A stretch of 12,497 nt of DNA, taken from the IMG/VR virus record IMGVR_UViG_2859799533_000004; one strand, 5' to 3'. Shown here piece after piece: positions 1,595 to 9,306 of this stretch (its first letter is position 1; each line of letters starts with the position of its first letter). This stretch comes from a virus. Lineage: Duplodnaviria; Heunggongvirae; Uroviricota; Caudoviricetes. Under the pieces are notes generated by a model. The model was not told where the DNA came from and searched no databases. It saw nothing but the letters and a program-made list of their open reading frames with translations. Position numbers and translations under genes: made by a program.

Positions 1595-1783
1595 GTGTTA
1601 AGCACAGATCGCTTTATACGTGAAAAAGAATGTCAGCAACTTACAGGCCTGAGCCGCTCATGTCGGTACCGCCTGGAAAAAGCCGGACAATTCCCATCAC
1701 GGCGTAAGCTGGGCGGTCGTTCCGTTGGCTGGTCTTTATCCGAAGTTCTGGCATGGAAGGACAGCTGCGAGGCAGTTCACTAA
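1595..1783 (+). CDS. alpA: AlpA-family (P4 Vis-like) small DNA-binding regulator/excisionase
   Basis: C-terminal 62 aa of ORF 1427..1783 match the AlpA/Vis pattern (LSTDRFIREKECQQLTGLSRSCRYRLEKAGQFPSRRKLGGRSVGWSLSEVLAW). Start placed at in-frame GTG 1595 after AAAGGGGG; the ATG at 1427 would add an N-terminal extension across the repeat arrays. Confidence 0.8.
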   Translation: MLSTDRFIREKECQQLTGLSRSCRYRLEKAGQFPSRRKLGGRSVGWSLSEVLAWKDSCEAVH

Positions 1784-1835
1784 TCAGGCTGGCGGCACAC
1801 AGCCGCCACCCATCCACTAATACAGAGATCTAACC

Positions 1836-2210
1836 ATGAATACTGGATATTCTCCCGAACAAGGGCGGGGCTTCGTTCGTCCTGAAAAACAGAATCTGCA
1901 AAATTTTGCCGAAATTATTCCGGTTATTTCCGGCCTTACTGGCGGGAGTGAAACCAATATTGTTAACGCCAGAGCGTTGCAGATGTTTGATGATAAAAAG
2001 GGAGTAAATTTAACTTACACCCCTGACGGCAATCAGAATATGAGCATTATCTCTGAGTCAGGTTTCTACAAACTAATAAAAACAAAAAGCGCCCCGTTGC
2101 CGGAGCGCCTTTGTGAACAATTAACCTACTGCGCAAAAAATGAATCTGAGCAGTGGGATTATATCAACCATGTGGAGAAGCGCCACAATTGCCGAATAAC
2201 GGGCAAAACA
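1836..2210 (+). CDS. Possible Bro-N-like (antirepressor-type) protein fragment; 3' end undefined because the frame stays open to 3260
   Basis: N-terminal ~125 aa are protein-like and contain a Bro-N-like motif (DDKKGVNLTYTPDGNQNMSIISESGFYKLIKTKS). The remainder of the 474-aa ORF is Cys/Ser/Arg-rich and antisense to better-supported minus-strand genes. End coordinate is nominal. Confidence 0.3.
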
Positions 2211-2311
2211 AAGGCCACCCGCTACGGTGGCCCCTCGACACAAGCTACACGTTATCCCCAACGCATGAGCATTGCCAACAATGCCACATTTGCGGCTGGT
2301 GGGCAATGCAA

Positions 2312-2500
2312 TCAGTCTGGTTCAGTTCGTTGCCATACCTGCAATGAGCGCTTTTCCCTGTACTCTTTAAGGAATTGCTCAAGGGCAAAAGCACATGGCG
2401 CGAATCTTTCTGATTCATGCTCTATCTTTCTGCGCCGTCTTTTCCGTGCCGGTGATAATGTTTTGGTCAATTCTTTATCGGTCATTGTGTTGTCCTGCAT
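2312..2500 (-). CDS. Small basic protein (57-62 aa), second gene of the leftward pair; function unknown
   Basis: ORF with an RRRRK basic patch. An internal ATG at 2485 has a better SD (AGGA, 7-nt spacer) than the ATG at 2500. Lies 42 bp downstream of the RHH-like gene. Confidence 0.45.
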   Translation of the reverse strand: MQDNTMTDKELTKTLSPARKRRRRKIEHESERFAPCAFALEQFLKEYREKRSLQVWQRTEPD

Positions 2501-2542
2501 AGCAATGCGCCGTAATACCTTACACCACGGCGCTGATGGTGA

Positions 2543-2848
2543 TTACTCTGGTTCTTTGGTCTTGCGGCGCTGGAGTTCTTCACGTGCGACAGTGACGAGC
2601 TGCCCGATCTCCTCGGCGGCTTTGATTCCGAGTTTTTCCACCTGCGCCAGTGCATCGAGCGAAGAAACCAGGGGATTTTCTCCACTTCCTTCTGCCTGGC
2701 GCCGGGCGATCTCACCGCGTACAGCCGTAACTATAAAATTCGCTTTAGTTTCCCCTGGCTGTAGGGATGCCTCAATGCCACTCACTACTTCATGTGGAAA
2801 TCTGGCATTCAGTTGCTGTGACTTATTGTTAACAGAACTCCTGGACAT
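2543..2848 (-). CDS. Putative transcriptional regulator, possibly ribbon-helix-helix type; candidate island repressor (or antitoxin)
   Basis: 101-aa protein from ATG at 2848 with strong SD (GGAGGTG, 5-nt spacer). N-terminal pattern NARFPHEVVSGIEASL...TKANFIVTAVRGEIARRQ fits a beta-strand plus two helices. It is transcribed divergently from the main operon across the operator palindromes. Confidence 0.55.
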   Translation of the reverse strand: MSRSSVNNKSQQLNARFPHEVVSGIEASLQPGETKANFIVTAVRGEIARRQAEGSGENPLVSSLDALAQVEKLGIKAAEEIGQLVTVAREELQRRKTKEPE

Positions 2849-2891
2849 GTTTGCACCTCCCATTAATAACGGGATGCAGTGTAATACAAAA

Positions 2892-2946
2892 GTGAATACC
2901 AAAAAAGACTTGAAATGGTATTCACCTAAATGTAATGTGAATACCA
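2892..2946. promoter_or_regulatory. Operator region: three copies of GTGAATACCA forming two overlapping perfect 10-bp-arm palindromes between the divergent genes
   Basis: GTGAATACCA at 2892-2901, TGGTATTCAC at 2916-2925 (inverted), GTGAATACCA at 2937-2946; read directly. Confidence 0.6.
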
Positions 2947-2984
2947 CAAGTGCTGATACATGCAATTCAGCAATTGAAACGACG

Positions 2985-3017
2985 AAGCCCCGCACTGTTG
3001 GAGCAGTAACGGGGCTT
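2985..3017 (+). promoter_or_regulatory. Imperfect long hairpin in the leader of the rightward operon
   Basis: AAGCCCCG(2985-2992) pairs with CGGGGCTT(3010-3017), extended by CACTG/CAGT. No following T-run, so it is not a classic terminator. Confidence 0.3.
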
Positions 3018-3053
3018 CTAACCACCAACGATAACGAGAGTATCGAGGTAGCT

Positions 3054-3260
3054 ATGAGAAATCATACCACACACCCGCAAGGGCGGGACTCGCACAACCT
3101 GAATAAATACATCTGGCGTTTTATCGCCCTGAGCACTGCACAACCGCGCGTGATTACCATTGAGGCCACCAGCGAACAGGAAGCACGCCAGCAATCCCCG
3201 GCTGGCTGCGTGATGGTATTCGCTGCCCGTATTCGTCAGGAGGTGTGCCATGTGCAATAA
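3054..3260 (+). CDS. Small protein (68 aa), first gene of the rightward operon; tentatively Icd-like (P4 cell-division-inhibitor family)
   Basis: ATG 3054 with SD GAGGT (4-nt spacer). Protein-like sequence YIWRFIALSTAQPRVITIEATSEQEARQQ...VMVFAARIR. The family assignment is from memory and unverified. Its stop overlaps the next start. Confidence 0.5.
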   Translation: MRNHTTHPQGRDSHNLNKYIWRFIALSTAQPRVITIEATSEQEARQQSPAGCVMVFAARIRQEVCHVQ

Positions 3261-3474
3261 CACCCGTCCGGACGCAGCCGCCGAAGCCATCATAACGCTA
3301 ATGCATGCGCTGATTGATATTTCTGTTATTGCTGACAGGGCGCATAAACACGCAGCCAGAGAATCAGAATGCATCTTCCATTATTTAGCATTTGTGCAGC
3401 TAAAAGCCGATCAGGCACTGGATAAGGCCGGAAAAATTATCATGGCTGATGTGCAGGAGGTGCACCATGCATAA
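3250..3474 (+). CDS. Hypothetical protein (74 aa)
   Basis: ATG 3250 preceded by AGGAGG (6-nt spacer); overlaps the upstream stop by 11 nt and the downstream start by 8 nt. Confidence 0.6.
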   Translation: MCNNTRPDAAAEAIITLMHALIDISVIADRAHKHAARESECIFHYLAFVQLKADQALDKAGKIIMADVQEVHHA

Positions 3475-4289: not shown

Positions 4290-4589
4290 ATGAAACTTAA
4301 ATATTCTGGCTTAACTGCCAGTGGCAACACTCACCCTAAATTTACGCGCGGTGATATTTACCGCGACCAGTACGGCGGCACGGTAATGATTAAGGGCGTG
4401 GAAGAACGGCGTGTAACCTACCGCCGTGAAGGTTACGAATATGATTGCGTGATGCCTGTTTATCAGTTCCGGCGTGATTTTTCTCTGGTACAGACCGCGC
4501 CGCATAACGTGCCCACCAGCAACGCCAGGGCACGGGCAAACATCCAGAAGCTGAAAACCATGGTTAACGGATTCAGGGGCAAGAAATGA
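4290..4589 (+). CDS. Hypothetical protein (99 aa) immediately upstream of, and coupled to, the replicase gene
   Basis: ATG 4290 with GGAGA upstream; its stop overlaps the rep start (ATGA). Confidence 0.65.
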   Translation: MKLKYSGLTASGNTHPKFTRGDIYRDQYGGTVMIKGVEERRVTYRREGYEYDCVMPVYQFRRDFSLVQTAPHNVPTSNARARANIQKLKTMVNGFRGKK

Positions 4590-5884
4590 AAAGCGCACCG
4601 AACTTAAAAAAACAGCCTTACGACAAGATGACCGAAGTCATTATTTTTGCGGGTAGTGATGCCTGGGCACATGCGAAACAGTGGCAGGAACAGGACGGGC
4701 GACTGGCTGGCGATAATGTGCCTCCCGTTGTGCTGGCTGATGATCAACTGGATGAACTGGCAGACCTGAGAATCATCGACGAGGGGCGCTATTGTGTCCG
4801 GCTGTACAAGGCAGGCCACATCAGGCCATCAAATATTAATGCCATTGCGCACAAGCTGGCGGCGGCGGGTGTAACTGATGCGAATTATTACCCCGAAGGG
4901 ATGCACAGCCATATGCGGGAGAACTGGCGCGAATACCTGGAACGGGTGCGCGGGAAAGAGCCGGCGGAAGAAAAAAACCACCAGCGAAAAACCACGCTAC
5001 CGATGAGCGTTGGATCTACCGGATACGACACGCAACTGGATTACGTGGTTAAGGGGATTATTCCGGCGGTATCGCTATGCAGCATATACGGAGCTAGCGG
5101 GTCCTATAAATCATTCCTTGCCGGATCGTGGGCGTGCCATGTTGCCACTGGTCGCCAGTGGGGAGGCCGCAGGGTTGCACATGGTGCGGTTCTCTATGTG
5201 GTTGGTGAAGGCGGTATAGGTGTTCCGCGTCGTGTAAAAGCCTGGGAGGTTGTGCACGATGAGCAGGTGAAAAATCTGTATCTGGTAAACCGCCCCATCT
5301 TTCCGGCTGCCCCGCTTGATGTTGATGAAATGGTTATCGCTGCCCGTCAGGTGGAGCGGGAAACGGGTAAACCTGTACGCATGATTATTCTGGATACGCT
5401 GGCGCGTTGCTTTGGTGGGAATGATGAAAATGATTCCCGTGATATGGGGGCGTTTATCCGTGGTTGTGACGAACTGAAACGACGCACAGGGGCCACGGTG
5501 CTGGTGGTTCACCATTCCGGCAAGGATGAGACGAAAGGCGCGCGCGGTTCCAGTGCATTTCGTGCTTCGCTGGATGCTGAATACCGGATACGCAGGGAGG
5601 ACGCAGGAAGCGAAGCGCTGGTTATCTCATGCACCAAAATGAAGGACGCGGAGGAACTCAAAGAAGCCGCATATGACTTACGCGTGGTGGAGCTTTTTAC
5701 CGACGCTGACGGTGAATTAATCACGTCGCTGGTGGTGGTGGATGATCCGCGCCCTCCTGTTGAACTGGAGCGCATCGAGGAGGCAGGGAACAAGACGGAA
5801 AACCATACCGCGCTATGGGGTGCATCCGTTCACGCACACAGAACGGCGACAAGTGCACGATCCCGCTGTTACGTGATGACATGA
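4586..5884 (+). CDS. Replication protein: RepA/DnaB-like RecA-fold P-loop ATPase (AAA_25-type helicase core) with ~150-aa N-terminal extension
   Basis: P-loop region IYGASGSYKSFLAGSWACHVATG (5090-5113), Walker B VRMIILDTLARCF, and the family-typical VLVVHHSGKDETKGARGSSA motif. The Walker A is non-canonical (Tyr where the Gly before Lys is expected). Confidence 0.82.
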   Translation: MKSAPNLKKQPYDKMTEVIIFAGSDAWAHAKQWQEQDGRLAGDNVPPVVLADDQLDELADLRIIDEGRYCVRLYKAGHIRPSNINAIAHKLAAAGVTDANYYPEGMHSHMRENWREYLERVRGKEPAEEKNHQRKTTLPMSVGSTGYDTQLDYVVKGIIPAVSLCSIYGASGSYKSFLAGSWACHVATGRQWGGRRVAHGAVLYVVGEGGIGVPRRVKAWEVVHDEQVKNLYLVNRPIFPAAPLDVDEMVIAARQVERETGKPVRMIILDTLARCFGGNDENDSRDMGAFIRGCDELKRRTGATVLVVHHSGKDETKGARGSSAFRASLDAEYRIRREDAGSEALVISCTKMKDAEELKEAAYDLRVVELFTDADGELITSLVVVDDPRPPVELERIEEAGNKTENHTALWGASVHAHRTATSARSRCYVMT

Positions 5885-5985
5885 AAAAGCTGGGGTATGA
5901 AATGAAAAACTTCCGGCGCTGGCTGTACAAGCTGGAAAAAGATGGGGTTATTCGTATCGATGGGGATGATGTAGCGCCGCTATAA
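5881..5985 (+). CDS. Small ORF (34 aa) overlapping the rep stop (ATGA); may be a frame-shifted C-terminal part of the replicase rather than a separate gene
   Basis: The +1 frame from 5764 reads as protein-like sequence (..GDKCTIPLLRDDMKKLGYEMKNFRRWLYKLEKDGVIRIDGDDVAPL) whereas the annotated rep tail (HTALWGASVHAHRTATSARSRCYVMT) does not. Confidence 0.3.
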   Translation: MKKLGYEMKNFRRWLYKLEKDGVIRIDGDDVAPL

Positions 5986-6177
5986 AAGTGAGGAGCAAAA
6001 GCGAGGGGGATAGAAAGAGGGCCAAAATTAGCCCGCTCTCCCTCACTTTTCGACCTGTATACATCCTCAAAAGTGAGGGGTAAAAAAATACTTATGAAAC
6101 ACACACATAGAAAAACCGAAAATCCCAACTGCGACGAAGTGAGACGCTTGAAAAAGTGAGGCGAAAAAGTGAGAGGT
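5984..6177 (+). repeat. Iteron cluster, probable replication origin, with central AT-rich unwinding segment
   Basis: AAAAGTGAGG at 5984, 6069 and 6152; AAAAGTGAGA at 6166; variants AAAAGCGAGG (5997) and GAAGTGAGA (6135); an inverted copy CCTCACTTTT (6041-6050); AT-rich stretch 6080-6130. Directly downstream of rep. Confidence 0.7.
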
Positions 6178-6990: not shown

Positions 6991-7075
6991 ATTTATTGTT
7001 TTTAATTGTTTTGATGCAAAAAAGATGATGGTTATGGTTAATTTTTGTTCGACATCTTTGCAGGCAGATAAAAAA

Positions 7076-7110
7076 GCCCGATAAGGTCAGAGGTGGCTTA
7101 TCGGGCTTTT
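7076..7110. terminator. Strong bidirectional hairpin terminator
   Basis: GCCCGATAAG-N11-CTTATCGGGC (10-bp perfect stem) flanked by an A-run upstream and a T-run downstream. Confidence 0.6.
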
Positions 7111-7186
7111 GCATATGAGGCTTTTTGGTGCACTGACACACATGATCGGGATAATCATTTCATAATTTGCAACACAACTCAATATC

Positions 7187-7271: not shown

Positions 7272-7478
7272 ATGGCTGAAGAGAAAAAAGGCGGTGTTTC
7301 GGTGTACATAAGCCCCGAAATCGTGGAGGTGCTCAAGCAGCGCCACAAAAAAAACTATGAGGCTGGCGTGGCGGCTGGACTGGATCCGCTGATGACGCCG
7401 GAGCCGTCGATAGGTTCACTTGTACGCTCTTATTTACTTGCGGCGCTTGGGATGCATAAAAATTATGGGGGTGAATAA
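7272..7478 (+). CDS. Hypothetical protein (68 aa), first gene of the capsid operon
   Basis: ORF with GAGGA upstream; its stop overlaps the capsid gene start (TAATG). Confidence 0.55.
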   Translation: MAEEKKGGVSVYISPEIVEVLKQRHKKNYEAGVAAGLDPLMTPEPSIGSLVRSYLLAALGMHKNYGGE

Positions 7479-8533
7479 TGGCAGGCAAAGCAACGGCACT
7501 TAACACTCACCAGCTTTTTGCGTACCTGAATCGCGGGGATATTGCGGAATTTAAATTTAGTCCGCTGTTTACCACGCTGTTTTTCCCGAAAGTAGCGACA
7601 TTCAACACCCAAAACATCATGCTGGATAACCTGGACACCGAAGAAGTCACTATGTCAGCGTTTTGCTCGCCTATGGTTGGTAGCCAGGTACAGCGCGATA
7701 AAGGGTACGAAACCAGCACGATTAAACCTGGCTACATGAAGCCAAAGCACGAAATCGATCCAACAAAAACCATCATGCGCATGGCTGGAGAAGATCCGGC
7801 ACAGCTTAACGACCCAACCTATCGCCGTATGCGCCTGATTACTGGCAACATGCGCCGCCAGGTAAACGCTATTAAAGCGCGTGTTGAATGGCTGGCGGTA
7901 AATGCGGTAACGACCGGAAAAAACATCATTGAGGGCGAAGGCATAGAACGCTATGAAATCGACTGGAAGATGCCGGAAAACAACATCATAGAGCAGGCCA
8001 AAGGCCGTAAATGGTCCGAGCAGGACAAAGAAACCCACGATCCAATCTATGATATCGAGCTTTATGCGGATCAGGGCAATTGCCCCGCAAACGTCATGAT
8101 TATGGGCGCTGAGGTATGGCGCACGTTACGCAGCTTTAAAAAATTCCGCGAACTGTACGATCTTTCCCGTGGTTCAGAATCCGCCGCAGAACTGGCCTGT
8201 AAAAACCTGGGCGAAGTGGTGAGCTTTAAAGGCTATCTGGGCGATATTGCCCTTATCGTCTATTCCGGCAAATACGCCGACAGCGACGGCACCGAAAAAC
8301 ATTTCCTTGAGCCTGATTTGCTGGTCTTGGGCAACACCAACAATAAAGGGCTGGTTGCTTATGGTGCGATTATGGATCAGGAAGCGGTAAGAACGGGCGC
8401 AACGCAAAACATGTACTACCCGAAAAACTGGATTGAGGACGGCGATCCGGCGATTGAGTACGTGCAGACGCACAGCGCACCGCAGCCGGTGCCGGCAGAC
8501 ATTCGCAAATTTGTTACCGTCAAAATTGGTTAA
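7478..8533 (+). CDS. Major capsid protein, phage lambda gpE family
   Basis: 351 aa. Shares multiple blocks with lambda gpE as recalled: FKFSPLF..LFFP, PGYMKPKHE, EDPAQLNDPTYRRMR, RGSESAAEL..LGEVVSFKGYLGDIALIVYSGKY, YPKNW, GDPA. Similar length to gpE (341 aa). Confidence 0.85.
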   Translation: MAGKATALNTHQLFAYLNRGDIAEFKFSPLFTTLFFPKVATFNTQNIMLDNLDTEEVTMSAFCSPMVGSQVQRDKGYETSTIKPGYMKPKHEIDPTKTIMRMAGEDPAQLNDPTYRRMRLITGNMRRQVNAIKARVEWLAVNAVTTGKNIIEGEGIERYEIDWKMPENNIIEQAKGRKWSEQDKETHDPIYDIELYADQGNCPANVMIMGAEVWRTLRSFKKFRELYDLSRGSESAAELACKNLGEVVSFKGYLGDIALIVYSGKYADSDGTEKHFLEPDLLVLGNTNNKGLVAYGAIMDQEAVRTGATQNMYYPKNWIEDGDPAIEYVQTHSAPQPVPADIRKFVTVKIG

Positions 8534-8544
8534 CGGGGGATTCT

Positions 8545-8880
8545 ATGAACACTCCATACATTGAGTTATTTGCAGGCAGTCAGCAGGTATCCACGACGCT
8601 GGTACATTTTGCCGCTGATGCTGGCGTCATTCAGGAATTTACCCCGCTGATGCTGGCGGACAATGGCGAGTTTAAGCCGTGGGATGGTCAGGCGTCCGGA
8701 AAGGCTGTTTATCTGACTTCGTACCCCGTGGACACGTCAAAGCAGAAATCAGCACAGTGCTACAAGACGGGGATCTTTAATATCGCCGCCGTGAACTGGC
8801 CCGAGAGCGTCGACACCGATGCGAAAAAATGCGCCGCCTTTGCGGGTTCTGGCGTATCCGTTCAGCCGCTGGCCCGATAA
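8545..8880 (+). CDS. Head decoration protein, phage lambda gpD family
   Basis: 111 aa versus 110 aa for gpD. Shared motifs TPLMLAD, WDG, YKTG.F, WPE, KK.AAFAG. Confidence 0.78.
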   Translation: MNTPYIELFAGSQQVSTTLVHFAADAGVIQEFTPLMLADNGEFKPWDGQASGKAVYLTSYPVDTSKQKSAQCYKTGIFNIAAVNWPESVDTDAKKCAAFAGSGVSVQPLAR

Positions 8881-8892
8881 GCAGGGGGAACG

Positions 8893-9306
8893 ATGGCAAC
8901 GAATGAAAGCATCATGACGCTACCGCTGGCGAGTAAATTTAAAGCCGAAGCGCGGGCAATGGCTGACAGAGGTTTATCAACCTACGAGGCCGTATATCAA
9001 CTCAACAAACTGGAAGAGCAGGACAAGCCGCGCGCTGATGCGATTATGGCGCTTCATGAGCATAACGACTATCAGCCGCTGTTACGTGCAATGGCAAACG
9101 TGCCTTGTATCGATGTTGGTACGGCTAAAAGCATCCTTAGCATGACCATAGAGCAGGAACGCCAGAAGGTTGCGCCGGAGCTTACCGCAGCCTTTGAAAA
9201 CTTTATGGACATGCACAGCCCGCAAGCCGTTTCAGCTGGCATGGCATACGACGGCAGAAACCCGGGCGATGATGGCGACATCGAGAGCATACTGAAAACC
9301 ATCTGA
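8893..9306 (+). CDS. Hypothetical protein (137 aa), last gene of the capsid operon, immediately upstream of cos
   Basis: ORF with GGGGGAA SD; no family recognised. Candidate packaging accessory protein by position only. Confidence 0.6.
   Translation: MATNESIMTLPLASKFKAEARAMADRGLSTYEAVYQLNKLEEQDKPRADAIMALHEHNDYQPLLRAMANVPCIDVGTAKSILSMTIEQERQKVAPELTAAFENFMDMHSPQAVSAGMAYDGRNPGDDGDIESILKTI

What the first reader, a model, noticed from the sequence alone, without database searches (positions are those of the whole stretch)
2312..3053. Divergent control region: triple GTGAATACCA operator and a leftward RHH-like plus small basic protein pair
Seen in sequence: three copies of GTGAATACCA form two overlapping perfect palindromes (2892-2946) between a minus-strand gene pair (101-aa RHH-like, then 57-62-aa basic protein) and the rightward operon. 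Established knowledge: satellite master repressors (for example SaPI Stl) are divergently transcribed from the replication/packaging operon; RHH protein followed by a small protein is also a common toxin-antitoxin layout. Inference: the RHH-like protein is the island repressor bound at these operators, or the pair is a TA-type stabilisation or abortive-infection module.
Basis: partly seen in the sequence, partly recalled or inferred. Interest (0 to 1): 0.55.

Follow-up and report, generated by a model that had tools for sequence, protein, structure and literature searches.

The report
Satellite immunity cassette with antisense RNA
The three repeats look like genuine binding sites for a small repressor that keeps an E. 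coli phage-satellite island silent, and the same 1-kb region also holds a probable antisense RNA and a long overlapping reading frame, a control layout I did not find described for these islands.

Summary
GTGAATACCA occurs exactly three times (2892-2901 +, 2916-2925 -, 2937-2946 +) between a leftward gene pair and the rightward operon of a satellite island inserted between roxA and phoQ in E. coli.

The 101-aa protein belongs to the YlcI/YnfO family. Its N-terminal ~44 residues superpose on ribbon-helix-helix (RHH) domains. In ~155 related loci the 10-bp half-site sequence changes together with the predicted DNA-reading strand of the protein. The half-sites always sit in the spacer and at +1 of a conserved rightward promoter. 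The repressor reading is therefore supported by comparison, not by experiment.

The toxin-antitoxin reading is not supported.

Two things were missed:
- **Antisense RNA.** A ~80-nt RNA on the minus strand (about 3054 to 2975) is complementary to the ribosome-binding site of the first rightward gene. It has a conserved -10 element and a hairpin whose G·U pairs fit only the minus strand.
- **Long overlapping ORF.** The first rightward gene is a homologue of phage P4 kil. It is the in-frame end of a 474-codon ORF (1836-3260) running antisense through both leftward genes. This frame is stop-free in 79 of 95 distinct relatives, against 1-2 of 95 for the other two frames, recalling P4 eta/kil.

All functions are inferred.

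The parts
2892..2901 (+). Operator half-site O1 (GTGAATACCA). It lies in the spacer of the candidate leftward promoter and upstream of the PR -35.
   Evidence: class-specific half-sites at equivalent positions in relatives
2916..2925 (-). Operator half-site O2 (inverted copy). It fills the first 10 nt of the 17-nt spacer of PR.
2937..2946 (+). Operator half-site O3. It overlaps the end of the PR -10 and the predicted +1.
2910..2938 (+). Candidate rightward promoter PR: -35 TTGAAA (2910-2915), 17-nt spacer, -10 TAATGT (2933-2938). Predicted start is about 2945.
   Evidence: Read from the sequence. A TTGACx / 17 nt / TAAnnT arrangement recurs at the same place in all repressor classes (sequences). 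The simple promoter scan did not call it. Inferred.
2878..2886 (-). Candidate -10 of the leftward promoter PL (TACACT or TATTAC on the minus strand).
   Evidence: It aligns with TATACT/TATAAT/TATAGT at the same place in other classes. It is weak in this window. Inferred.
2543..2848 (-). 101-aa YlcI/YnfO-family protein. It has an N-terminal RHH-like DNA-binding domain (about residues 9-50) and a long conserved C-terminal helix (59-98). Proposed repressor.
2312..2485 (-). 57-aa protein with a disordered arginine-rich N-terminus and one confident helix. Function unknown. It probably shares a transcript with the repressor.
   Evidence: Intact in 55 of 55 distinct variants that have it. Divergent versions keep a FALExFLxxY-type motif. 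AlphaFold2 model. No family match beyond phrog_21027.
2975..3054 (-). Predicted ~80-nt cis-antisense RNA. Stem-loop 2 spans 3054-3019 and is complementary to the Shine-Dalgarno and AUG of the kil/icd-like gene. The terminator hairpin spans 3018-2984 and is followed by GUCGUUUC.
   Evidence: Alignment and covariation. Fold -37.6 kcal/mol, z = -6.6. No Rfam family. Expression not tested.
3061..3066 (-). -10 element of the antisense-RNA promoter (TATGAT, preceded by TGG as an extended -10).
   Evidence: TAnnnT at a fixed distance from the hairpins in 139 of 145 distinct sequences
3054..3260 (+). 68-aa Icd-like protein. It is a homologue of phage P4 Kil and the first gene of the rightward operon.
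   Evidence: NF033153, 1.5e-19; P4 Kil hits the same model at 1.6e-21
1836..3260 (+). 474-codon 'eta-like' ORF. It starts 52 nt after alpA with a weak Bro-N/Ant-like segment. It runs antisense through both leftward genes and the whole control region and ends in frame with the kil/icd-like gene.
   Evidence: openness statistics; P4 eta/kil comparison
1595..1783 (+). alpA (Phage_AlpA family), the known activator/excisionase type of Gram-negative satellites, immediately upstream of the long ORF.

Best explanation
This is the immunity (silencing) cassette of a P4/PICI-type phage satellite.

**Protein layer.** A leftward-transcribed ribbon-helix-helix repressor of the YlcI/YnfO family binds three 10-bp half-sites spaced 24 and 21 bp apart. 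One site lies in the spacer of its own promoter, one in the spacer of the rightward promoter PR, and one over the PR -10/+1. Binding would shut off PR, which drives the kil/icd-like gene and, downstream, the replication and capsid genes. It would also autoregulate the repressor.

**RNA layer.** A second lock is an ~80-nt RNA made from the opposite strand inside the start of the kil/icd-like gene. It is fully complementary to that gene's ribosome-binding site and start codon. It should block translation of any transcript that escapes from PR. By analogy with P4, untranslated transcripts would then terminate early.

**Bypass.** The whole cassette sits inside a long ORF that begins just after alpA and ends in frame with kil/icd. 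This is the same nested layout as eta/kil in phage P4. The likely purpose is that, on induction, AlpA-dependent transcription from upstream is translated straight through the cassette and so reads past both locks.

**Shown here:** the repeats, the family memberships, the RHH-like fold, the operator/protein co-variation, the strand-specific RNA structure, the conserved -10, and the selection for an open frame.

**Inferred:** DNA binding, promoter activity, RNA expression, and the read-through mechanism.
For: **Repeats.** They are exact and non-random.

**Protein.**
- NF041551 at 60.8 bits against a cut-off of 30.
- The AlphaFold2 model has helices at 19-28 and 35-55 and a long helix at 59-98.
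- hhalign puts QLNARFPHEV in register with Arc QFNLRWPREV.
- Other loci carry short proteins in the same slot. These give sub-threshold hits to Arc, CopG, HicB, NikR and also to YlcI_YnfO_N.

**Operators.** At least 13 beta-strand classes each have their own half-site repeated 3-5 times at the same positions. Examples are QQLNAR/QQINAR with GTGAAT(A/C)CCA, KQISIR/RQISIR with TGTGATT(C/T)A, and QLTTVR with GTGTGTTTCA.

**Antisense RNA.**
- The hairpin is 98.1% paired on the minus strand, with 76 G·U cells. On the plus strand it is 86.3% paired.
- 7 of 17 predicted pairs show compensatory changes.
- TAnnnT sits at a fixed distance in 139 of 145 sequences. The codon opposite its centre varies, so the conserved bases are not explained by the protein alone.
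- The fold has z = -6.6.

**Long ORF.**
- The control region plus the ylcI antisense stretch is stop-free in the icd frame in 79 of 95 distinct arrangements. The other two frames manage 2 and 1.
- 15 of 16 sequence clusters are open, against 6.1 expected from synonymous-codon permutation.
- Other window genes show no such depletion.
- P4 Kil is in the same family, and P4 eta spans its own immunity region.
Against: - No experiment supports binding, promoter use or RNA expression.
- No curated RHH family reaches its threshold. Pfam gives only PSK_trans_fac at E = 0.008. hhalign against Mnt and Arc is not significant. Foldseek found nothing.
- The simple promoter scan called no promoter in 2200-3300. 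The PL -10 in this window is poor.
- The U-tract after the hairpin is interrupted (GUCGUUUC).
- The operators and the N-terminal coding region are adjacent, so linkage alone would produce some co-variation.
- The long frame is closed within the control region or the ylcI antisense stretch in 16 of 95 arrangements, including about half of this window's own repressor class.
- Published work on Gram-negative PICIs explains induction through AlpA without any repressor.
Confidence: 0.7

Rival explanations
1. The leftward pair is a type II toxin-antitoxin or abortive-infection module. The RHH protein is the antitoxin and autorepressor, the 57-aa protein is the toxin, and the palindromes are only the TA autoregulatory operator.
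Against: - The small protein matches no toxin or defence model.
- It is hydrophilic, consisting of a basic tail and one helix.
- It is absent from 50 of 135 evaluable loci. In some loci other small genes replace it.
- There is a 57-nt gap between the genes rather than coupling.
- The operators sit on the promoter of the opposite operon in every class.
Confidence: 0.06
2. The RHH protein and antisense RNA form a replicon copy-number control, like CopG/RNAII of pMV158 or CopB/CopA of R1, rather than a helper-responsive master repressor. They would tune the RepA-helicase operon once the island replicates.
For: The logic is the same: a small repressor on the promoter plus an antisense RNA on the leader of an operon that leads to the replication protein. 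One short analogue gives a weak hit to the IncFII RepA2/CopB-type model. My knowledge of those plasmid systems is from memory.
Against: The first regulated gene is a kil/icd homologue, and the layout matches the P4 immunity region rather than a plasmid basic replicon. The island is integrated and carries its own iteron-like repeats after repA. The two readings are not mutually exclusive.
Confidence: 0.15
3. The hairpin region is a sense-strand leader element, such as a C4/CI-like processed immunity RNA or an attenuator made from PR, and not an antisense RNA.
For: P4 and P1 use same-strand RNAs just upstream of kil/icd. Rfam finds C4 and isrK in P4 at the equivalent place. The weak similarity of the hairpin to the P22 sar terminator scores slightly better on the plus strand.
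Against: No C4 or isrK match appears in the window even at E <= 10. There are 76 G·U cells on the minus strand, which become A·C mismatches on the plus strand. The T-rich tract follows the hairpin only on the minus strand. The conserved TAnnnT is oriented for leftward transcription.
Confidence: 0.1
4. The long ORF 1836-3260 is not translated. Its openness is a by-product of composition, shared ancestry or constraints from the genes on the other strand.
For: - The YlcI-like protein has almost no Tyr, so few antisense stops are expected: 0.94 per gene.
- In the window alone the synonymous test is not significant.
- The frame is closed in 16 of 95 arrangements.
- The middle of the predicted protein looks unnatural.
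Against: - The non-coding control region is stop-free in 81 of 95 arrangements in this frame but in only 2 and 1 in the other frames, across unrelated operator sequences.
- 15 of 16 clusters are open against 6.1 expected.
- The distance from the icd start codon to the ylcI start is 1 mod 3 in the listed open cases, and most of the closed cases shown have a different phase.
Confidence: 0.4

Closest known systems
Phage P4 immunity region (PLE, CI RNA with seqA/B/C, nested genes eta and kil)
   Same: The order is an alpA-type gene, then a long ORF that spans an internal promoter and the immunity determinants, then a nested in-frame ~65-aa Kil/Icd-like gene, then the replication genes. Kil and the window protein hit the same NCBIfam model. 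Both have an RNA-based lock on kil expression.
   Different: P4 has no protein repressor and no opposite-strand genes in eta. Its RNA (Rfam C4, with isrK marking the seqA region) is made from the same strand and acts on repeated targets. The window has neither family. Instead it has a cis-antisense RNA, an RHH gene cassette on the other strand, and a long ORF of 474 codons rather than about 200.
Phage P22 immI region (Mnt repressor, divergent Pmnt/Pant, Arc, sar antisense RNA); details from memory
   Same: Both have an RHH repressor with a C-terminal helical extension, transcribed divergently from the promoter it represses. Both have a small cis-antisense RNA covering the ribosome-binding site of a gene in the repressed operon. 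The beta-strand motif QxNxRxPxEV is shared with Arc.
   Different: No significant sequence or profile similarity to Mnt or Arc. The sar model scores 16.8 bits against a threshold of 43. There are three separated half-sites instead of one compact operator, and no Arc equivalent. The regulated operon is a satellite replication/capsid operon.
SaPI Stl / Gram-positive PICI Rpr master repressors
   Same: The position and orientation match: divergent from the replication/packaging operon, next to the integration module.
   Different: To my knowledge Stl-type repressors are much larger helix-turn-helix proteins inactivated by helper-phage proteins. This protein is RHH-like and 101 aa, and no inducer is known. 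Gram-negative PICIs are described as AlpA-activated, with a repressor 'unclear'.
Plasmid dual controls: pMV158 CopG + RNAII, and R1 CopB + CopA; from memory
   Same: A small repressor acts on the promoter, and a constitutive antisense RNA acts on the leader of the same operon.
   Different: The context is different (integrated satellite, kil-like first gene, long overlapping ORF). No homology was shown.
E. coli K-12 YlcI (DLP12) and YnfO (Qin)
   Same: The N-terminal domain belongs to the same family (NF041551; phrog_949).
   Different: To my knowledge those are ~60-80-aa uncharacterised prophage proteins; the literature search found no functional study of them. The window protein has an extra conserved 50-aa C-terminal helix and a defined operator context.

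Membership tests
NCBIfam NF041551 YlcI/YnfO family | Score above the curated cut-off (30 bits) over the 42-residue N-terminal model | tested here: met
   60.8 bits, E = 9.6e-17, residues 9-50
Ribbon-helix-helix (Arc/MetJ/CopG) superfamily | Strand-helix-helix fold of about 45 residues | tested here: met
Ribbon-helix-helix (Arc/MetJ/CopG) superfamily | Significant sequence or profile match to a curated RHH family | tested here: inconclusive
   PSK_trans_fac is below its cut-off in 20 of 31 members. hhalign against Arc gives E = 0.0042 and probability 8%. Against Mnt it is not significant. Positional analogues hit Arc, RHH_1, HicB and NikR below threshold.
Ribbon-helix-helix (Arc/MetJ/CopG) superfamily | Dimer that inserts a two-stranded sheet into repeated DNA sub-sites | not testable with these tools
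   Only indirect: class-specific half-sites co-vary with residues 11-16
Type II toxin-antitoxin module | Second gene belongs to a toxin family | tested here: not met
   No Pfam, NCBIfam or PADLOC hit
Type II toxin-antitoxin module | Obligate pairing of the two genes | tested here: not met
   The small ORF is present in 85 of 135 evaluable loci. Elsewhere it is absent or replaced.
Type II toxin-antitoxin module | Toxicity neutralised by the partner | not testable with these tools
   Needs expression tests
Rfam C4 / isrK (P4 CI and seqA, P1 c4) | Covariance-model score at or above gathering | tested here: not met
   No hit in the window at gathering, or at E <= 10 in 2800-3300. The P4 positive control gives 74.9 and 60.8 bits.
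Rfam sar RNA (P22) | Covariance-model score at or above gathering (43 bits) | tested here: not met
   16.8 bits, E = 1.3, terminator hairpin only
P4-type nested eta/kil arrangement | First gene after the internal promoter is a Kil/Icd-like protein | tested here: met
   NF033153 at 1.5e-19 for the window and 1.6e-21 for P4 Kil
P4-type nested eta/kil arrangement | kil is the in-frame end of a longer ORF that starts upstream of the internal promoter, next to the alpA-type gene | tested here: met
   ORF 1836-3260. The frame is conserved in 79 of 95 arrangements.
P4-type nested eta/kil arrangement | Translation of the long ORF prevents termination of upstream transcripts | not testable with these tools
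   Known for P4 only (summary in PMC10111431)
Stl/Rpr-type PICI master repressor | Divergent position next to the int module, controlling the replication/packaging operon | tested here: met
Stl/Rpr-type PICI master repressor | Derepression by a helper-phage protein | not testable with these tools
   No helper is known for this island
cis-antisense regulatory RNA | Own promoter, structured body and terminator on the strand opposite the target's ribosome-binding site | tested here: met
cis-antisense regulatory RNA | Detectable transcript | not testable with these tools
   Needs RNA data

The most novel reading that the evidence does not exclude
The 474-codon ORF is a translated 'escort' gene. 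It would be kept free of stop codons for more than 1 kb while running antisense through two functional genes, a divergent promoter/operator region and an antisense-RNA gene. Ribosomes would then carry AlpA-driven transcripts through both the protein and the RNA immunity locks. This would explain how Gram-negative satellites can appear purely activator-induced while still carrying a swappable repressor cassette. It would also be one of the longest selected antisense gene overlaps in bacteria.
Probability: 0.4. Interest if true: 0.8.

Novelty: new variant of a known kind. Interest (0 to 1): 0.68.

Why it matters
For Gram-negative phage-inducible islands the accepted picture is induction through the activator AlpA. 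Whether they have a repressor at all is stated to be unclear.

This region argues that a large group of E. coli and other enterobacterial satellites carries a modular two-layer immunity cassette. Related DNA occurs in 1777 of 5426 complete E. coli genomes. The protein layer has at least 13 operator specificities. The RNA layer's leader type recombines independently of the repressor class.

That would bear on which satellites can coexist or exclude each other. It would give function to the uncharacterised YlcI/YnfO family. It would link PICI-type islands mechanistically to the P4 eta/kil immunity design.

The overlapping long ORF, if translated, is a clean natural test case for selection on 'translation as such' rather than on a protein product.

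Tried and rejected
- **Rfam.** No family matches on either strand at gathering (whole window) or at E <= 10 in 2800-3300. The sar, RsaJ and miRNA hits are noise or match the terminator only.
- **Fold and profile searches.**
  - Foldseek of the monomer model against the PDB found nothing.
  - A profile search against PDB sequences gave only a weak Hef helix-hairpin-helix match (E = 0.03). I do not trust it, because the model shows one continuous helix there.
  - hhalign against Mnt was not significant.
- **Defence and phage databases.** PADLOC has no hit for five proteins. No deposited phage genome encodes the protein, and only a 46-nt DNA match was found.
- **Coding test for the small ORF.** Codon-position and synonymous/non-synonymous counts were ambiguous. 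The antisense frame that shares third positions scores as well. I relied instead on ORF integrity in 55 variants and a conserved motif.
- **Near-copies of the operator at 3150 and 3214.** Rejected as operators.
- **Literature.** Searches for YlcI/YnfO, an Icd-like gene with antisense RNA, a cf-PICI repressor and PICI derepression found no description of this cassette. Forti et al. 1999 on eta/kil is not held, so I cite its summary in PMC10111431.
- **Iterons or integrase arm sites.** Considered for the repeats and rejected. Their position on the promoter and their class co-variation argue against it, and separate iteron-like repeats lie after repA.
Full report
**Context**

The window is 99.86% identical to E. 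coli 2017C-4173W12 (NZ_CP030768), and none of the differences lies in 2312-3260. It is an ~11-kb island between roxA and phoQ. Its genes, in order, are:
- integrase (1-1230) and alpA (1595-1783);
- the region under study;
- several small ORFs and a RepA-family helicase (from 4586), then SSB;
- a lambda-E-type major capsid protein, a head decoration protein and a connector;
- a small-terminase-like HTH protein.

This is the gene order of Gram-negative phage-inducible islands and P4-like satellites: integration zone, 'Bro' zone, replication zone, late zone (PMC10111431).

**Observation**

GTGAATACCA occurs exactly at 2892-2901 (+), 2916-2925 (-) and 2937-2946 (+). These give two perfect 10-bp inverted repeats that share the middle copy. 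With one mismatch allowed there are 6 matches against 0.61 expected, and 0 of 200 shuffles reach 6.

The two near-copies inside the next gene (3150, 3214) also occur in relatives that have other operator sequences. They follow the type of that gene, so they are coincidental.

The leftward genes are real ORFs. The first is 2543-2848 (101 aa, strong Shine-Dalgarno). The second is 2312-2485; its 57-aa start is the one annotated and the one shared by homologues.

**The 101-aa protein**

- *Family.* It passes the NCBIfam YlcI/YnfO model at 60.8 bits against a cut-off of 30. It passes no Pfam family. A sub-threshold match to the RHH antitoxin family PSK_trans_fac recurs in 20 of 31 homologues.
- *Distribution.* There are 128 homologue clusters, all from Enterobacterales apart from one record labelled Martelella alba.
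- *Conservation pattern.* Residues 1-35 vary by class, whereas residues 44-101 are highly conserved.
- *Motif.* The segment Q-L-N-A-R-F-P-H-E-V has the alternating pattern and register of Arc Q-F-N-L-R-W-P-R-E-V. hhalign finds that register but without significance. Against Mnt it is not significant.

I accept 'RHH-like' on fold and pattern. Membership of a curated RHH sequence family is not shown.

**Comparative test of the operator idea**

I fetched about 155 loci that encode relatives, from genomes, metagenomes and IMG/VR. All have the same layout. Written in the orientation of the repressor gene, the order is:
1. start of an icd-like gene on the other strand;
2. two hairpins;
3. three to five 10-bp half-sites in alternating orientation, 21-24 bp apart;
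4. a GTCAAG-type motif, which is TTGACx on the other strand;
5. a TATACT-type motif;
6. the Shine-Dalgarno and then the gene.

The half-site sequence is specific to the residues between the conserved K-S and R-x-P of the protein:

| Beta-strand residues | Half-site |
|---|---|
| QQLNAR (this window), QQINAR (Phytobacter, 51% identical overall) | GTGAAT(A/C)CCA |
| KQISIR, RQISIR | TGTGATT(C/T)A |
| QLTTVR (E. coli, Xenorhabdus, Photorhabdus) | GTGTGTTTCA |
| QMTTIR | GTGATATACA |
| QSLTAR | GTGTAAG |
| QIKNVR | GTGTGCAT |

Most half-sites begin with GTG, and R16 is conserved in at least 90% of the aligned proteins. Adjacent DNA is co-inherited, so linkage alone gives some association. What points to recognition is that the class-specific word is repeated 3-5 times in each control region.

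**Promoters (inferred)**

On the plus strand, TTGAAA (2910-2915), a 17-nt spacer and TAATGT (2933-2938) form PR. The same TTGACx / 17 nt / TAAnnT arrangement is present in the other classes (sequences).
- O2 fills the spacer.
- O3 covers the end of the -10 and +1.
- O1 lies in the spacer of the candidate leftward promoter, whose -10 is at 2878-2886 and is weak in this window.

Other classes have a fourth site after the leftward -10, which this class lacks. The simple consensus scan called no promoter here.

**A missed element: a cis-antisense RNA**

The inverted repeat 2984-2992/3010-3018 is conserved in all relatives. I aligned 49 distinct sequences and obtained these results:
- The hairpin is 98.1% paired on the minus strand, with 76 G·U cells. 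On the plus strand it is 86.3% paired, because those cells become A·C.
- 7 of 17 predicted pairs show compensatory changes.
- A T-rich tract follows the hairpin only on the minus strand.
- Upstream, TAnnnT begins 41-45 nt before the GGTTAGA motif in 139 of 145 distinct sequences. In the window it is TATGAT, the reverse complement of 3061-3066, preceded by TGG.
- The three conserved bases sit opposite codons whose amino acid differs between sequences. The varying hexamer centres imply His, Ser, Arg, Cys or Asp there, and the base opposite the hexamer's A is always T. The protein alone therefore does not explain them (the codon reading is my own).

The predicted RNA runs from about 3054 to 2975. 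It folds at -37.6 kcal/mol with z = -6.6. It is fully complementary to the Shine-Dalgarno (3045-3048) and start codon of the first rightward gene. No Rfam family matches, including C4 and isrK.

A scan of IMG/VR for the hairpin motif alone returned 120 loci.
- Of 109 with enough flank, 73 carry the YlcI-like gene.
- In many of the other 36, the same slot holds a short protein of roughly 57-64 aa. These have their own palindromic operators (for example GGTAATTACC, AGGTGTACACCT). They give sub-threshold hits to Arc, CopG, HicB and NikR and to YlcI_YnfO_N.

The repressor slot therefore appears to be a swappable module, and the RNA element is the more constant part.

**The first rightward gene and the long ORF**

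The 68-aa product of 3054-3260 is 'Icd-like' (NF033153, 1.5e-19). The C-terminal 65 residues of the P4 eta ORF correspond to Kil, by my recollection of the P4 literature. They hit the same model at 1.6e-21.

In P4, kil is the in-frame end of eta. Eta begins next to the alpA homologue and spans the constitutive promoter and the CI/seqA immunity RNAs (Rfam C4 and isrK). Translation of eta from an upstream late promoter prevents termination (summary of Forti et al. 1999 in PMC10111431).

The window has the same geometry. ORF 1836-3260 (474 codons) starts 52 nt after alpA with a weak Bro-N/Ant-like segment. It runs antisense through the small ORF, the repressor gene and the whole control region, and it ends in frame with the kil-like gene.

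This is not a one-off:
- The relevant antisense frame of the repressor gene is stop-free in 83 of 88 distinct sequences. Permuting synonymous codons gives 32.
- After clustering at 80% identity, 15 of 16 clusters are open against 6.1 expected, with a maximum of 12 in 1000 permutations.
- Other genes of the window show no depletion: 105 stops observed against 95.5 expected.
- Among 95 distinct arrangements, the ~190-nt control region is stop-free in the kil frame in 81, and in the other two frames in 2 and 1. Control region plus repressor gene gives 79 against 2 and 1.
- The frame is open in most members of most classes. It is open in only about half of this window's class and of QLTTVR.

I conclude that openness is selected. 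That the ORF is translated as an 'escort' is an inference from P4.

**The small ORF**

- It is intact in all 55 distinct variants that have it. It lies exactly 57 nt after the repressor gene in 85 of 135 evaluable loci.
- It is absent outside the E. coli-type loci. In a few loci, other small proteins that keep a FALExF(L/V)xx(Y/Q)-like motif replace it.
- The model shows a disordered arginine-rich N-terminus and one confident helix.
- It matches no toxin or defence family. Codon statistics are uninformative.

It is most likely a real accessory gene expressed with the repressor. Its function is unknown. One speculation is a partner of the repressor or of the RNA hairpins. The TA reading is unlikely.

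**How it most likely works**

In the silent island the repressor occupies O1-O3. This blocks PR and moderates its own promoter. The antisense RNA blocks translation of kil from any transcript that escapes. As in P4, untranslated transcripts would then terminate before the replication genes.

On induction, AlpA-dependent transcription from upstream would be translated along the long ORF. That would carry it through the cassette and at the same time interfere with the convergent repressor promoter. This reconciles a repressor cassette with published data that AlpA is required and acts as an activator. No step of this model has been tested.

**Novelty**

I found no paper describing a YlcI/YnfO-family repressor, this antisense RNA or the overlapping ORF in satellites. 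Each component is of a known kind: an RHH repressor, a cis-antisense RNA, and eta/kil nesting. The combination and the long antisense overlap are new variants.

Noticed in passing
window 1836-3260 (+): A 474-codon ORF with no stop runs antisense to two genes and through a divergent promoter region. It ends in frame with the Icd/Kil-like gene. The frame is conserved in 79 of 95 distinct relatives.
   Followed up: yes
window 5816 (repA, 4586-5884): A one-base deletion relative to NZ_CP030768 shifts the frame of the RepA-family helicase. It is 432 aa here against 466 aa annotated there, and the tail appears as ORF 5815-5985. It is either a sequencing error or an inactivated replicon. Two further single-base deletions lie at 1470 and 10665.
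   Followed up: partly
window 5984-6168: Iteron-like repeats AAAAGTGAGG occur at 5984, 6069 and 6152, about 84 bp apart, with an inverted copy near 6040-6050. They lie just after repA and are probably the island's replication origin. They are unrelated to the GTGAATACCA sites.
   Followed up: no
window 1836-2300 (+): The N-terminal part of the long ORF resembles Bro-N/Ant-type antirepressor proteins weakly (Pfam Bro-N E = 0.009; PHROG Ant families about 1e-5). Some relatives (for example L035) have a complete 266-aa gene of this type at this place, convergent with the repressor gene.
   Followed up: partly
window 1786-1811: A GC-rich hairpin (GGCGGC...GCCGCC) lies directly after the alpA stop codon, with no T-tract, between alpA and the long ORF.
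   Followed up: no
L158, L160, L168, L174, L201 and others (IMG/VR loci): In some loci with the same hairpins and icd-like gene, the repressor slot holds a short (~57-64 aa) RHH-like protein with its own perfect palindromes. The ATG of that gene overlaps a TTGACA on the other strand. Several end in the same RRGIEPKG tail as some YlcI-like proteins.
   Followed up: partly
L010, L089, L151 (downstream of the repressor gene): The position of the small ORF is a variable slot. Some loci carry unrelated small genes, including a probable small membrane protein in L151. This resembles the cargo slots next to prophage repressor genes.
   Followed up: no
window 7478-9306: The island carries lambda E-type capsid, D-type decoration and connector genes but no portal, protease or large terminase. 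It resembles the '11capE'-type islands described in PMC10111431 rather than a full capsid-forming PICI.
   Followed up: no
window 7065-7117: A strong inverted repeat (AAAAAGCCCGATAAG / CTTATCGGGCTTTT) with flanking T/A runs lies in the 416-bp gap between ssb and the capsid module. It is a probable bidirectional terminator.
   Followed up: no
window 2325-2349 (+): A terminator-like hairpin with a T-rich tail sits on the plus strand within the 3' end of the small ORF. It lies inside the long ORF and could matter for the read-through model.
   Followed up: no
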